Shown here: positions 52,861 through 60,100 of the stretch, in pieces
Position numbering within the stretch: the stretch's first letter is position 1
Layout of the letters: every line of letters starts with the position of its first letter
The notes under the pieces: model-generated
Seen by the model: only the letters and a program-made list of their open reading frames with translations
Database searches by the model: none
Told to the model about the DNA's origin: nothing
DNA from: Schmidtea nova
Taxonomy: Eukaryota
NCBI GenBank assembly: GCA_044892505.1
Contig: CM097883.1
Span: forward strand, 80,848,001 to 80,912,000
Reading direction: 5' to 3'
Length of the DNA stretch: 64,000 bases
Made by a program: the position numbers and the translations under genes

Positions 52861-55800
52861 GCATTCATTTTCAGTTTGTCGAAGGTATCAGGCCAGCTGC
52901 AATCTACTTAGGGTTTCTGTACTCGACTCGGCTGGGACTCGTCGAGTATTTAGGGAGTTACTCGGACTCGGGACTCGACTCTAATACTCGACGAGTCCCG
53001 AGTCCAAATTTTTAAAATTAAACAAAAAAAGAGTCAATCAATTTATTAAATGTCATTGTCACTTACGCCTATATTAATATTCATTGTACAATGTTGGTTT
53101 TGCGTCAAATTATTTTGCAAGAATTCGCAGAACAACGGCACTTTTATGTTTCAATGTAAGAAACAAAAATAACAATCAGAAGACTTTAAAACTCAATATT
53201 GAATGAAAATAAAAATGAAAATTTCATAAGTGATAAGAATGTAGTTAGTGTAGGTTAGTAAGTCAGTAAAAATAAAATGAATTTCAAAAGTGCAAAATTT
53301 GGTTTTGAAATTTCAATTTTTGTAACACGTTTACACGTATATATAGCTACCTATGCCTAGTCATAGCATAATAATTCAATATTATTTTGTTTTTGTGACA
53401 ATTATTAAAAAGACTTTACCAATAATAACGAATCAACAAAAACTTCACCAGACCAAAACTTAATAATAGTTGAAAATCAAAACGCTAAAACTTTGACAAT
53501 AAAGGAAGAGCTTGAAATAATTTTGAAAAACGCAGCTGAGCCTCAACCTCCAAAATAGTCGGTGATTTATATCAAACTAAATCAAGAATTTTTGCTTTTC
53601 AGAAATACTGGAAAACTAACTAGTAATCTTGATGATCTGCGCTGATCACATGTTTGCAACCTATCAAGCTAGCTGTGGAAACCATATCTAAACTAATTTA
53701 TATGTGGCCGATGTAACGTTAAAATTTATGTTGGATGAATTGTCTAAACAAAATATTTTTAAGCACTGAATTAAAAAAAGCCTTAATATGCAGCATAAAG
53801 GAGAGAAGGACTATCTATTTAGATATTCTGCAATATTTGACAGACCCTAATTTGTTTTTTTCGAATCAGGAAAGCTACGATATTTTTCATATCACCAATA
53901 AAGCAACAATAATCAAAAGTATTGTGGAAATCCTTTCGATTATTGTTGTTGATAGTCAGATTCAGTTAAATCATCGTGATTTGGATACCAGTTTAGAGTC
54001 AGATAATAAAAATATTGACACTTCTACAGTTAACGTAGGAATGCCTATGAAGCAGAAATTATACAATTTGATAAAACAAAAAAACAGATTGCCAGAAAGG
54101 ATCAGTTCCACAACAAATAAACAAAAAAAATTGGCAATATATTGTGAAAAAAGAATTGGAGTACTTCCGTCAAGAGGAAATACGAGGAAAGTATATTCAA
54201 ATGGTATATGATAATTTGATGAAAATTCGTCCAAGAAGTGTTGATTCAGAAAGGGTATTCTCGGGCTCTGGGTTATTTTGTACAAAAATAAGAACAAAAT
54301 TAGGAGATAGCACTTTAAATAATTTAAGTTTTTTGAGAAGTTATTTTTTAAAAAATTTTAATAAATAAATAGCTATTAGTTAATAAAGATATTTTAATAA
54401 ATAAATAACTATTAGTTAATAAAGCTATTTTTGTGTCATTATTATTTTTTTTACTTTACTTTTATTTGTTTCTGTTGGGCCCGGCGAATCGCAAAGAATC
54501 AAAAAGAAAGAATAAATTAAATAGAAAAAATAAGAATAAAATTAATCAAAATAACCAGAAAATTAGCAGCAGTGAACTGGTATTCATCAAATAAATGACA
54601 GAATAATAAATGAGTAATATCAAATACAAAATTTACCAATGAACCGGAACAAGACGGTTGAGTAATGAATGAGCAAAACCACTCAAGCGATGATAAGAGC
54701 TGTCAAAAATATGTCAGCAATCATAAAATAAAATCAAGTAGTCAAAAATATAATCAAAAATTAGTCAGACAAAATAACGGCATAACCATTCAATAACGAA
54801 CATTTAAAAATAAATAACTGTCAATTAAACAACCGTACCGAAATGTGATTGGCTAGCCGTCAACCAAAAATTAGTATAAATACGGCAACCAAATTCAGTG
54901 AGTTAATGTCATTTTTACCTGAGACAATTTGTACTATACCTTGTATCAAGAGAACTTGGAAAATAAAGGTACTTCATGTGAATTTATGTTATTGTTAATC
55001 TAAACCCTCATGTTTTCTTTTTTTAAATTCGATAAGATCGCGTCCAGAAGGTCTCCGGACCCGACGGGCGAAAATTGGCCTCTCAGCGCATCACCCTCTG
55101 GGTGATGGCTGATGCGGCATTGTAGCGCTAACCAATCCAGGAGGGGTTGCATATAGAGCATCGTTGATTGAGTACGAATAGAATATCGCTGATTAATTGC
55201 ATGTTGAATACCGTTGATAAGGTACGTATAAAATATCGTTAAATGAGTATGGGTGTGAGAGATAGATGACCCGAATCATACGTAGGACAGACCATGGTCG
55301 ACAATACAATAGCGTCGAGGCATATATTTTGAGATTTTTAGGCACGGCCACTGACACCCTTAACAGCGTCAAAATGGATTAGGGAAATAATATCTCCCAG
55401 TAGACATAAAAATCCAGGTGCGAGGTGGACTAGATGATGAGAAACACTATGAGTAGACCAACGGCTGAGAATGTACGAAATATTATGTCCGAAAGATAGT
55501 GAAGAGAACGTCAGATTCATCTGAGGTTGTGAATGTGCTAGCATGCCGAGTAAATGGACGGATAATCTAAAATCATAGAGAAACCGAAAAGGTGATGTAT
55601 GATCATTGATATAGCTGGATATGAACTGATTTAGTATGAGCAAGGTGAAGATGATTAACGAAACCAATTTGTATGGCTGAGTAAACACCCTGATTGCAGA
55701 GTGAGTAGATCGGTACACAGAGCGATGTTGGTAGTCAATACATAAATTACGTCTGCAGAACATTGTAATTTAATTTGAATCAATTTTTGTTCACAGCTAA

Positions 55801-55875
55801 TATGAATCGACATATTCGAGTCCAGTTGTTAAACATAACTTAACTATTGGACAAACCGAGACAGCCGGATGATGG

Positions 55876-56657: not shown

Positions 56658-57179
56658 ATGAATAAGCAGTCTAATCCCGAACGATGTATGAGGCAGATGA
56701 GGATGAGCTTGCTGGAACAGAAGGTTCACCAACAGAATATGGAGCTGGAAGAACTAAAGCGTACGTGGTTTTCCCCAGCACAGATGAAAGAGGTACTTCA
56801 AAGTAAGGATAGGTTATCTCGAGCGTGGGAAGAACAGACCCGCGAAATCGCAGCGGTTAAACTTGAACTGAACAGATGCTTGAGAGCGACTACGACAAAT
56901 GTCATTGAGGAGCACCTACGAGACCAAATACGGAGAGCTACTTTCGACAGATGGGTGCCGTCACGAAGTATGACCAGCGAGACTCAAACCTAAAGCCCGA
57001 CAGTTATTGCGAGTGCGACCAGTGAGCCGAAAGCTGGAGTATCCGCTACCAACACAAAGACGAAAAAGAGGAACCGTCTAGGAGCAAAGCGAATGAAGGA
57101 AAGGCGGGCGTTGGCCGAGCGACTAGGAATCGAAGTCGACCTGCTCAGCGGTCTATCAGAAAGGCTTATAAAGTTATAA
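56658..57179 (+). pseudogene. LTR-borne small ORF type B, second copy; internal TAA at 56991-56993
   Basis: AG at 56656-56657 directly before the ATG. EELKRTWFSPAQMK..QTREIAAVKLELNRC..LRDQI..TFDRW. After the stop a basic tail KTKKRNRLGAKRMKERR..LGIEVD. AATAAA at 57273. Confidence 0.7.
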
Positions 57180-60100
57180 ATTCGAACGTATTCTTGAGCG
57201 AAAAAATGTATAAAATTAAAGAGTTGTCTCGTTTTATTGTGTGCGTGATGAATGAATGGTGTAAGGGATATAAATAAAGAACGTTGAAAATAAACTGCTT
57301 AAACAAATCCAATTGACCGGGAACCGAATTTAATGAATTAAAGTACACCCTAGACTGAAAATTGAACATCAATAATAAAAACATTTGGGACCGTATTAAA
57401 TCCAGGCAGGCCTTCTATCAGCAGTGGTGAACCCGTAGATAAACGAGGGAATAGTAGCCGTCAAGGTTGCTTACCTGCCTCGTCATCCTACAACGCTTGA
57501 TGCAGTTCCAACATGACAAGCAAATAGGGGCGAGTCATGGGCATCAGCGGGGGATATATTTTTATGTGGGAGGGATTGCCCTAATAATTTCAAACAGCTA
57601 GATAATCCCACGTTGGAAATCCATCCTTACCAACAACCCAGCATTTCTAAAATATTATTATAGTTTGTTTAGATTTATAATAATACATTAATTTTTATAT
57701 TTTTCATATTTTATATTTTTGAAATAAAAATCGTGAAATGGAAATTTAAACTTGTTTTTTGTCAACTTCATTTTATCTTTTAGGAAAAAAAATTTCTCGA
57801 TAATTTCCCGGTAAACCGGTAATTTTATTTTCATTTACCGATTTGGCGGTAAATGAAAAAATCGGTAAATTTACAATCCCTAGTAGTCATCCAACGTTGT
57901 GGAGATTTCTTGATGGTCTGAGACTCGACATCATCAAACAGAAGACCTTGTATCTACAAGGTGTTTGCGGAGTCGTGCAAACTGACTAAAAGCGATATCG
58001 TCTTCTAAAAAAAAGAGTCGTCAGAGCCATCGCAACATATGACCAAACAGATATACGCACATTTCTACGGCAATCGCATTTCTAACGCATAATTAGATTT
58101 AGGACTTAGCACAGTTTAGATTTCTGTTTACTTGTTGGTGTAGATATTTGAAACTTATTCGGTGTTTTATTTAAATTTTAAGTTTAGACTGGTATTTAAT
58201 ATTTTTAGACTATGTGACTCAAACATTATTTTTATTTAAAAATTAATAACGTGAGCAAAGATCCTATGGACGTTCATCTTTATGACCTCAAGTCCATATG
58301 AACCGTTTGTCTTATGACTAAAAGTCCATATGATCATATGGCTATGATCGTTTGTCCTATGACCAAATGACATAAGACCATAATTCCTTAAACCACTGGA
58401 TTGAGGTTCAAGTAATTAATTAGTTAATTGTACTTTTATTTCTACCTTTTATTCGTAATTTGTTTGATTTTCATTTCAGGTTCCTCCTTCTCCCCCGAAT
58501 CTCAATTATTCGATAAATGGGTAATTTATTTTTATCTCAACTTATCATTAATTTGTTTATTCTAGCGTTTTCATTCTATTCAAATGGGTAGGTTATTTAT
58601 TTTCGATCTTGTTTTCGATCTTGTTTCATCTTTTTAGTTGAATTGATCAGCCCAACAGGTTAATCCCCTCTTATTTAATGATAGGGCCTTAGGCATTAAT
58701 ATAAAGGAGTTAAATAATTACCAAAAAATAGAAATTAAAGAATAAATAATTACCTAAAATAAATTTACTACTAAAATAGAATGGAAAAATTACTTAAATT
58801 AGAATTTAGAAAAAATCAATTACTAAAAATAGATGTTGGGTTATCTTTAGTAATTGAAATTAGAATTAAAGTTATAAATAGTAATTTTAGGTATAGGGGT
58901 TAGTATATAAGCTTAGAAAAATTTTTTAAAAAAATTCATTTTGCGATAATCAATTGTGGAGGCAAAAACTTTGGAGAATATTTTAGTTAATATTAATATA
59001 TTTGTTGTTTGAGATTTCAAAGAAATTTGTAATTTGAGGGAAATCTATTAATCAAAGAGAAAATTCCATTTATTTTGAGTGCTCTCGCCTGAACAGATAT
59101 CCGTAAGAGAATTCCCAATTCATTGATCCGAGTCATTTTGATTGGAATTGAGAATTATTGAGTAGATAGGAGAATTGAATAACTTAGTATAAATACGCCG
59201 ATCAAATTTTAGAAGGGGAGAGGAAATTAATATCCGAAAACTTAGCAAGGAGAAAATCGAATCGCAAAGTAATTGTTATTATATTATATTTTGAAAGGAC
59301 TAATTTGAATCTAGTGAAGGATAAATTTTATCCTTTTGAGTTTACATATTTTTTTAAATAGCGAATACAAAGTAAAGAGATATACTTTAGTATTCCTTGA
59401 TTGCCCCAAAATCTTAACCCTCTTGCTTGCCCATCTTGTAGAAGGAAAATCTTAGCGATCGTTGTGCTACATAGGCGGCAACGATTTCTTGTAGGCTGCA
59501 ACAAACAGCAAGGACTAATAAATCCACATCTTGTGTTGTTCTTGTACACAGTTTTTGTAAATTGCATTTTGTAAATTATTATTAAAAGTATTTGAAAGAC
59601 GAAGTTGTTTCTTTTACTAGTACATTTATAAATAAATATACGCAACCACACTAATTATATCATCTTTATCATATTTTTATCTATTGGAGTCAACTTGTGT
59701 TAAGGTCAGTAACCCCCATCATTTTTTGATCTTAACATTACAAATCTAACGAAATTAAAAAATATAAACACGAACATAAAAATATTTTTAAAAATTTGCA
59801 TTGAACGTTGCGGGGTTACGGGAACCTGGTTTAAAACCTAATTTAATAATGAAATAAAATTCCATATAAATTAGGTCAGTCTTAATTTTAGAAAAGAATT
59901 GGCTAGAATCCTATTATAGTAAGATTTTTCTTGTATAATATCATTGATTATCTTATGGAATCTCCTCATTTAAAATATTTTATGTGTTTTATTTAGAGCT
60001 ACGGAAGTTCCTCTAAAGATTTTTAGCTTAACGGTAAAGATTCTGGTAATTAACATGTATAATTTTATTATCTAACTAGGATTCAGGGGGAAAAAAGAAA

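What the first reader, a model, noticed from the sequence alone, without database searches (positions are those of the whole stretch)
54473..57643. Second long ORF-bearing solo LTR with the same promoter grammar but a different ORF set
Seen: promoter spacing conserved with 28036 (GATTGG, TATA, then TTAATGTCATTTT 28-29 nt later) although the bulk DNA is not obviously alignable. It carries ORF-C plus an ORF-B homologue instead of ORF-A plus ORF-B. A hairpin CATCACCC-TCT-GGGTGATG lies at ~55088-55106 in the leader. Inference: the mini-gene modules are exchangeable between subfamilies.
Basis: partly seen in the sequence, partly recalled or inferred. Interest (0 to 1): 0.7.

Follow-up and report, generated by a model that had tools for sequence, protein, structure and literature searches.

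The report
Retrotransposon LTR with swappable two-gene cassette
This is a decayed lone terminal repeat of a giant Burro-like retrotransposon, likely from a flatworm, that carries the same two small genes in the same order as its neighbour at 28036, and whose gene-bearing middle was likely swapped as one block between subfamilies while the element was being copied.

Summary
Observation largely confirmed. 54473-57643 is a 3,171-nt solo LTR (TG...CA, 4-nt target duplication) of a Burro-like giant Ty3/gypsy element. Related LTRs flank about 26-kb bodies with gag, an env-like fusion domain, PR-RT-RH-IN, ankyrins, a TRAF ORF, a tRNA-Pro PBS and a PPT. The promoter spacing and the hairpin are real and conserved.

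The 'different ORF set' is not supported. ORF-A and ORF-C are linked through a third lineage (hhalign 84% and 96%; the direct comparison is not significant). All 122 ORF1+ORF2 pairs found are in fixed order and lineage-matched, none mixed.

Exchange does happen, one level down. Within this LTR's lineage, U3, the two-gene cassette and the 3' tail have incongruent trees. This copy is itself a three-way mosaic, and two young elements with body dS 0.13-0.18 differ by dS 1.1-1.7 in the cassette.

Both ORFs are under purifying selection, sit behind a predicted splice donor and two acceptors, and have no homologue or fold match found. In this copy both are broken. Verdict: new variant of a known kind, moderately interesting; splicing, polyadenylation and protein function are untested.

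The parts
54469..54472 (.). left target-site duplication (TTTC)
   Evidence: 4-nt duplications also flank three paired-LTR relatives
54473..57643 (+). solo LTR, 3,171 nt, of a Burro-like Ty3/gypsy element
   Evidence: a flank-to-flank joint without the element in run X1
54473..54908 (+). predicted U3 (A-rich); 85-100% identical per 40-nt window to L033/L035, 48-80% to L042/L043
54847..54852 (+). GATTGG, reverse CCAAT box (label from general knowledge)
   Evidence: ATTGG in 21 of 22 aligned copies
54875..54882 (+). TATA box
   Evidence: 20 of 22 copies
54903..54915 (+). TTAATGTCATTTT, initiator-like; predicted transcription start near 54909-54911
   Evidence: start site inferred, not mapped
54962..54974 (+). 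AATAAA directly followed by a predicted splice donor (GT at 54969-54970)
   Evidence: GTA in this column in 20 of 22 copies (read by eye); AATAAA beside it in 15 of 22
55078..55118 (+). conserved RNA stem-loop containing CATCACCC-TCT-GGGTGATG (55089-55107)
55784..55796 (+). predicted splice acceptor before ORF1
   Evidence: YAG within 15 nt of the ATG in 11 of 12 hand-picked ORF1 starts
55802..56364 (+). ORF1 ('ORF-C'), broken: ATG 55802, stop 55841-55843, conserved core in the frame 55873-56361, family C-terminal block in another frame (56139-56321)
56642..56657 (+). predicted splice acceptor directly before the ORF2 ATG
   Evidence: YAG within 15 nt in 13 of 16 hand-picked ORF2 starts
56658..57179 (+). 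ORF2 ('ORF-B'): coiled-coil helices, then a Lys/Arg-rich motif from 57063; interrupted by an in-frame stop at 56991-56993
57196..57221 (+). predicted polyadenylation region at the ORF2 stop; the family's AATAAA is not kept here, ATTAAA at 57215-57220
   Evidence: AATAAA or ATTAAA in 17 of 20 copies, no shuffle control
57222..57643 (+). conserved, structured 3' tail (predicted U5); 86% to L046, 67-68% to L043
57644..57647 (.). right target-site duplication (TTTC)
28036..31718 (+). comparison element: solo LTR of a sister lineage, ORF1 ('ORF-A') at 29832-30281 and ORF2 at about 30760-31173

Best explanation
This is a decayed solo LTR of a giant Burro-like Ty3/gypsy retrotransposon, and its middle is a fixed two-gene cassette, predicted to be transcribed and spliced from the LTR's own promoter, that was likely swapped as one block between subfamilies by template switching during reverse transcription. 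Shown: LTR identity, fixed order, purifying selection, mosaic ancestry of this copy. Strongly inferred: ORF-A and ORF-C are one family. Inferred: RNA starts near 54910 and uses the donor at 54969 with one of two acceptors (the unspliced leader holds 20-26 upstream ATGs). These mRNAs would end at the poly(A) signal at the ORF2 stop, and read-through of that signal would give genomic RNA. I favour (about 60:40) that this signal also ends the genomic RNA, making R about 2.3 kb and equal to the cassette. Strand transfer at either conserved edge of R would then reassort U3, cassette and U5. Speculative (about 25%): ORF2, a coiled-coil protein with an Arg-rich motif, is an RNA-binding regulator of that switch, in the manner of Rev/Rex (resemblance recalled). 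This copy arose by LTR-LTR recombination and both its ORFs are broken.
For: LTR identity: 3 of 7 copies followed upstream have LTR pairs 99.8-100% identical and 24-26 kb apart, with gag-CCHC, fusion glycoprotein, PR, RT, RH, IN, ankyrin and RING-TRAF-MATH. The PBS matches 18 nt of the genome's tRNA-Pro end plus CCA. One family: ORF-A vs third-lineage ORF1 P 84%, E 8e-6; ORF-C vs the same P 96%, E 1e-9; reversed controls at most 3.1 bits; colinear core. Fixed order: 122 of 122 pairs lineage-matched. Selection: dN/dS 0.08-0.28 in 9 of 11 pairs, the other 2 saturated. Mosaic: this LTR groups with L042/L043 in leader, ORF1 and ORF2 (UFBoot 97/99/95), with L046 in the tail (99) and with L038 in U3 (92). 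Informative sites switch from 157:32 to 19:100 (p 1e-32) and from 32:110 to 159:36 (p 4e-28). L103 vs L106: dS 0.13-0.18 in four body ORFs, 1.1-1.7 in the cassette. Identity changes near the initiator and within about 150 nt upstream of the ORF2-stop signal in both cases examined. Contigs from public runs match this copy without differences across both junction regions, so it is not an assembly chimera.
Against: Direct ORF-A vs ORF-C comparisons are not significant (blastp E 1.9; hhalign E 0.21 and 0.1), so homology is transitive, and the third-lineage profile finds only 2 of 29 C-type and 12 of 24 A-type sequences at E<1e-3. Start site, splicing and poly(A) sites rest on motifs only. An AATAAA beside the donor (15 of 22 copies) allows a short-R reading. 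The true parents of the mosaic are not in the sample (cassette neighbours only 71-83%). U3 is A-rich, so its tree has weak deep support. The AU test also rejects the ORF1 and ORF2 trees for each other (p 0.013, 0.005) though SH does not, so the cassette may not be one perfect block. Profiles were built from many of the same loci. No function was found for either protein.
Confidence: 0.7

Rival explanations
1. One reading: ORF-A and ORF-C are unrelated mini-gene modules that replace each other between subfamilies.
For: Direct comparisons are not significant. A PBS-sharing family has either no detectable ORF or a coiled-coil ORF with only an inconclusive link to ORF2 (hhalign P 3.8%, E 0.011).
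Against: Both match a third lineage over the same residues. Same slot, same acceptor context. 0 of 122 pairs are mixed.
Confidence: 0.1
2. Same element, different anatomy: the AATAAA at 54962 ends the genomic RNA, so R is about 80 nt and the cassette lies in a 2.6-kb U5. Swaps then need one extra template switch besides the obligatory transfer.
For: AATAAA with a U/GU-rich tract beside the donor in 15 of 22 copies. Foamy viruses keep a donor and a poly(A) signal in both LTRs and toggle them by U1 binding (PMC3694450, abstract read). Breakpoints at the start site fit this too.
Against: The donor is better kept than the AATAAA (20 vs 15 of 22). In the sister lineage an AATAAA follows the donor in only 3 of the 6 copies printed. 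The two 3' breakpoints examined fall just upstream of the ORF2-stop signal rather than in the best-conserved tail.
Confidence: 0.35
3. The incongruence comes from gene conversion or ectopic recombination between integrated LTR copies, or from faster evolution of the middle, not from template switching.
For: Thousands of candidate copies are available as donors. The non-coding leader is barely alignable between subfamilies (34-41% to most).
Against: Synonymous divergence is about tenfold higher in the cassette than in the body of two elements whose own LTR pairs are 99.95-100% identical, so both LTRs carried the cassette at insertion and rate alone is unlikely. Conversion between sequences 50-70% identical over 2 kb is disfavoured (general knowledge). 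For this solo copy alone, conversion after insertion cannot be excluded.
Confidence: 0.15
4. Not an LTR but a free-standing 2-4 kb non-autonomous element with short inverted ends.
For: Most copies first retrieved stood alone with 4-nt duplications, and 4 copies with a purine tract had no partner LTR within 30 kb.
Against: Paired copies flank gag-env-pol bodies with PBS and PPT in both lineages.
Confidence: 0.02

Closest known systems
Burro / GYPSM1 giant gypsy-like LTR retrotransposons of dugesiid planarians (PMC6431247, passages read)
   Same: About 29 kb overall; one polyprotein frame of about 5,090 codons with gag-CCHC, an env-like fusion domain in frame between gag and pol, PR-RT-RH-IN and ankyrins; a MATH/TRAF domain present.
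   Different: No BIR found; RING-TRAF-MATH is a separate ORF downstream of the polyprotein (upstream in the D. tigrina element described). The passages read mention no ORFs inside the LTR. The primary Burro papers (Grohme 2018; Lee 2026) were not held and may describe them.
Retroviral genes lying in LTRs: MMTV sag, HIV nef, foamy bel (recalled, from no call)
   Same: Small accessory ORFs duplicated with the LTR and expressed from spliced RNA.
   Different: Those lie in U3, upstream of the main start site. Here two ORFs lie downstream of the predicted start (R or U5) with their own donor, acceptors and poly(A) signal, so a solo LTR would keep the whole unit. No sequence or fold similarity was found.
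Foamy virus LTR with the major splice donor inside R (PMC3694450, abstract read)
   Same: A donor and a poly(A) signal are present in both LTRs, which needs 5'/3' discrimination.
   Different: No LTR-internal two-gene cassette downstream of the donor; the mechanism here is untested.
Mosaic LTR evolution of HERVH LTR7 (PMC8912925, passages read)
   Same: Blocks exchanged between subfamilies, detected by incongruent trees and attributed to template switching.
   Different: There the blocks are short cis-regulatory modules; here the block is a 2.3-kb protein-coding cassette.
Bdelloid LTR retrotransposons with interchangeable ORF3 types (PMC5408684, passages read)
   Different: Those are non-homologous ORFs between pol and the 3' LTR; here the ORFs are inside the LTR and homologous across lineages.

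Membership tests
Solo LTR of a Ty3/gypsy element | TG...CA ends with a target-site duplication and no PBS or PPT beside it | tested here: met
Solo LTR of a Ty3/gypsy element | Homologous sequence occurs as paired direct repeats around gag and PR-RT-RH-IN | tested here: met
   relatives are 63-75% identical to this LTR at its ends
Solo LTR of a Ty3/gypsy element | tRNA primer-binding site after the 5' LTR, purine tract before the 3' LTR | tested here: met
Burro-like elements | Total near 30 kb with a single polyprotein of about 5,000 aa | tested here: met
   LTR-to-LTR 26.1 kb plus a 3.3-kb LTR; frame open over three adjacent stretches, 1508, 3333 and 247 codons; tested on relatives, not on the lost parent of this solo LTR
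Burro-like elements | Env-like fusion glycoprotein in frame between gag and protease | tested here: met
   PF24664 E 2.6e-71 ahead of RVP and RVT_1; also in the sister lineage
Burro-like elements | Ankyrin repeats and a MATH/TRAF domain | tested here: met
Burro-like elements | BCL2-like motif ahead of env | tested here: inconclusive
   no Pfam Bcl-2 hit at E 0.1; a GGW motif lies just before env, its BH2 likeness is recalled
Burro1-4 as named in S. mediterranea | BIR domain | tested here: not met
   no BIR hit in the pieces scanned; hence filed as Burro-like, not as Burro1-4
Burro1-4 as named in S. mediterranea | RT groups with named Burro sequences | not testable with these tools
   no named Burro or GYPSM1 protein among the 120 hits listed of 515
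Rev/Rex-like RNA export factor (ORF2) | Arg-rich RNA-binding motif | tested here: inconclusive
   a conserved Lys/Arg-rich motif is seen; no sequence or fold match
Rev/Rex-like RNA export factor (ORF2) | Binds a structured response element and promotes unspliced RNA | not testable with these tools
   needs experiment

The most novel reading that the evidence does not exclude
In these Burro-like elements R is a 2.3-kb, self-contained, spliced two-gene operon. Its orphan products (a new-fold alpha/beta protein and an Arg-rich coiled-coil RNA regulator) run an early/late switch between LTR-only mRNAs and genomic RNA. Because solo LTRs keep promoter, exons and poly(A) signal, thousands of them remain mini-genes whose R-only transcripts can be co-packaged and donate fresh cassette alleles to replicating elements.
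Probability: 0.2. Interest if true: 0.8.

Novelty: new variant of a known kind. Interest (0 to 1): 0.52.

Why it matters
Protein-coding genes downstream of the start site inside an LTR are unusual: the recalled retroviral cases are in U3. Here they are ancient (three lineages, the most distant pair at the limit of detection), selected and very numerous (2,944-8,154 first-look candidates per query). If expressed, solo LTRs in this genome are dispersed two-gene units rather than bare promoters, which bears on host-transposon interplay in planarians, where Burro1 is reported to aid stem cells (second-hand, PMC13465017 passages). The large, datable copy set also makes where reverse transcriptase switches templates measurable from sequence alone. 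This particular copy is dead and matters only as a clear mosaic example.

Tried and rejected
ORF1/ORF2 identity: no Pfam hit above cut-off. No homologue among 5.8 billion proteins with alignments A1 and A3 (near lengths only). One hit among 1.84 billion representatives for the ORF1 profile, a Cys-rich tandem-repeat protein scoring by summed short stretches, rejected; ORF2 was not run there. ESM Atlas best scores 0.79-0.80, leads only. No PDB sequence match. ORF1 model (pLDDT 77, pTM 0.67): no Foldseek match in PDB or BFVD, best VIA Z 3.2; this does not show a new fold. ORF2 model (pLDDT 79, pTM 0.39): no BFVD match. No relative of ORF2 in metagenome contigs; viral contigs were not scanned.

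Expression: no RNA holder listed. The four runs laid were contigs of unrecorded kind and showed no GT-AG joint among those listed; no evidence either way.

False leads: the identical LTR pair 15.9 kb apart at C1:237.95 Mb is a segmental duplication. The split copy at C1:154.07 Mb is interrupted by a 12.5-kb inverted duplication.

Literature: searches found no paper describing ORFs in Burro LTRs; the two primary papers and their supplements could not be seen. Earlier-findings look-ups returned nothing.
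Full report
1. The observation. The element runs from TGTTGGG at 54473 to CCCAGCA at 57643 (3,171 nt) with TTTC on both sides; its neighbour runs 28036-31718 with GTAC on both sides. GATTGG, TATA and TTAATGTCATTTT stand at 54847, 54875, 54903 and at 28363, 28390, 28419; the 13-mer occurs only at these two places in the window. The two elements do not align by blastn. The hairpin is at 55089-55107, within a 41-nt stem (z -2.2, 4 of 200 shuffles as stable). In 19 copies 89.9% of 317 cells pair and 15 change on both sides, reached by 0 of 500 shuffles (related rows inflate this). Contigs from four public runs of one study match the copy; one of 2,375 nt covers 55068-57442 without a difference, and one contig joins the flanks without the element.

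2. What it belongs to. The window lies in G000 (1.25 Gb). A DNA search gave 43 matches from 40 scored of 1,743 candidates. ORF-C and ORF-B each gave 150 hits of 150 scored, from 2,944 and 8,154 candidates. Most copies stand alone with 4-nt duplications, but four shared a purine-rich upstream flank. Followed 30 kb upstream, none of these four had a partner LTR, but three shared internal sequence. Using that as bait, 3 of 7 copies followed had LTR pairs 99.8-100% identical, 24-26 kb apart. Between them lies a frame open over about 5,090 codons with gag, CCHC knuckles, a Monjiviricetes-type fusion glycoprotein, protease, RT, RNase H, integrase and ankyrins, then a RING-zf-TRAF-MATH ORF, a coiled-coil ORF and a short ORF. 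The 5' LTR is followed by an 18-nt match to the genome's tRNA-Pro end plus CCA; 16 nt of this motif occur 2,989 times, control 0. The 28036 lineage has paired copies too. This is the architecture described for planarian Burro elements (PMC6431247, passages read), so the host is likely a dugesiid planarian. No BIR was found, Bcl-2 is inconclusive and no named Burro sequence was available, so I file it as Burro-like.

3. Is the ORF set different? ORF-B is homologous between the two LTRs (profiles P 99%). ORF-A and ORF-C do not match directly (P 0.6%, E 0.1). The higher score (P 53%) came from a bridging sequence inside the A set. That bridge belongs to a third large lineage (150 of 150 hits). 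With it removed from A, A matches the third lineage at P 84%, E 8e-6 and C matches it at P 96%, E 1e-9, over the same residues. The C profile finds 18 of 18 third-lineage ORFs at E<1e-3; the third-lineage profile finds 12 of 24 A-type (including the window's ORF-A) and 2 of 29 C-type. Reversed controls score at most 3.1 bits. The joint alignment is colinear through the core. Across 194 sequences, 122 ORF1+ORF2 pairs were found: 54 C+B2, 40 A+B1, 28 T+B3, none mixed. A further 19 ORF2 and 13 ORF1 hits were unpaired (locus edges, insertions or deletions, not all checked), and one copy is rearranged. These loci were mostly chosen through the ORFs and helped build the profiles. An unbiased sample of PBS sites shows the cassette is not universal: 5 of 39 have both ORFs, 1 has ORF2 only, and the commonest family mostly lacks it.

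4. Are the ORFs genes? dN/dS is 0.08-0.28 in 9 of 11 pairs, the other two being saturated. In 22 aligned copies the CCAAT-like and TATA boxes are kept in 21 and 20, and a donor-like GTA about 60 nt past the initiator in 20. A YAG lies within 15 nt of the ATG in 24 of 28 hand-picked starts (read by eye), and the unspliced leader holds 26 ATGs here and 20 in L106. AATAAA or ATTAAA lies at the ORF2 stop in 17 of 20 copies (AT-rich, no control). The tail is structured, with 14 of 59 predicted pairs showing a compensatory change. In this copy ORF1 is split across frames and ORF2 has an internal stop. Neither protein has a homologue or fold match in the searches run. ORF1 is predicted as a compact alpha/beta domain, ORF2 as long helices followed by a basic helix.

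5. Is anything exchanged? Yes, within the lineage. Of 43 elements with a tail, 19 had all five segments and 16 passed a length filter. This LTR groups with L042/L043 in the leader, ORF1 and ORF2 (UFBoot 97, 99, 95), with L046 in the tail (99) and with L038 in U3 (92). SH does not separate the three cassette trees (p 0.05-0.49) but rejects the U3 and tail trees for them; AU rejects all cross-pairs. Informative sites flip between segments (p 1e-32 and 4e-28). Two young elements, L103 and L106, have dS 0.13-0.18 in gag, polyprotein, TRAF and coiled-coil ORFs and about 90% identity at both LTR ends, but dS 1.67 and 1.12 in ORF1 and ORF2. Since each has near-identical LTR pairs, the swap preceded insertion. 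Identity changes at the initiator and shortly upstream of the ORF2-stop signal in both cases examined.

6. Mechanism. Shown: a solo LTR, a fixed cassette under selection, mosaic ancestry. Inferred: the LTR promoter drives spliced ORF1 and ORF2 mRNAs ending at the ORF2 stop, and read-through gives genomic RNA. If that signal also ends genomic RNA, R equals the cassette, and minus-strand transfer between co-packaged RNAs at either conserved edge reassorts U3, R and U5. If the AATAAA beside the donor ends it, R is short, U5 is long and one extra switch is needed. Foamy viruses show that a donor and poly(A) signal present in both LTRs can be toggled (PMC3694450, abstract), and HERVH shows block exchange between LTR subfamilies (PMC8912925, passages). 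A Rev/Rex-like role for ORF2 is a recalled resemblance only.

7. Novelty and verdict. Burro elements and LTR recombination are known. A spliced two-gene cassette downstream of the start site inside the LTR was not found in the searches. The primary Burro papers and their supplements could not be read; Lee 2026 is known to me only through PMC13465017. PMC8532177, PMC11410931 and PMC5408684 were seen as passages. New variant of a known kind; interest 0.52.

Noticed in passing
L114-L116 (G000:C2:183.76-183.79 Mb); L111-L113: A paired-LTR element of the 28036 lineage (21.6 kb LTR to LTR) keeps gag, env-like, protease, ankyrin and TRAF but shows no RT, RNase H or integrase hit: likely a non-autonomous, env-bearing subfamily. 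L111-L113 has the same spacing but was not scanned for pol.
   Followed up: partly
L205-L244 (first 40 of 2,989 PBS matches): Of 39 analysed (one fell outside the position filter), 5 have both ORFs and 1 has ORF2 only. 26 belong to another family, in which 18 show no ORF1/ORF2 and 3 carry a 194-209-aa coiled-coil, basic ORF in the ORF2 slot.
   Followed up: partly
window 26924-27455 (-) and 61707-61937 (+): Further ORF-A-like fragments, the first about 600 nt from the 28036 element.
   Followed up: no
window 38538-39050 (-): 170-aa ORF with a weak Bcl-2 Pfam hit (E 7e-4, below cut-off); no match to the Burro-like polyproteins.
   Followed up: partly
window 41790-43048 (+): Three ORFs whose motifs recall a parvovirus-type capsid (recalled resemblance; Pfam gave nothing above cut-off).
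   Followed up: no
L245 (G000:C1:459.6 Mb): Tandem array of tRNA-Pro genes with a 308-nt period; 1,111 matches of the 3' motif genome-wide. This is the primer tRNA of the element.
   Followed up: partly
proteins P0059, P0062, P0064 and others: Unnamed metagenome or assembly polyproteins, 49-53% identical in RT-IN, also carry the fusion domain (P0064 with ankyrins): Burro-like architecture occurs in other records.
   Followed up: no
L035, L041, L100, L229: Short LTRs (1.6-2.1 kb) that lost most or all of the cassette; L100/L102 is a paired copy at 99.8% identity, so cassette-less LTRs still transposed.
   Followed up: partly
L051: Rearranged LTR with an ORF2 fragment placed ahead of ORF1; the only order exception seen.
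   Followed up: no
window 12152-13458 and 43710-44338: AT-rich tandem arrays with periods of about 148 nt, 10 nt and 16 nt.
   Followed up: no
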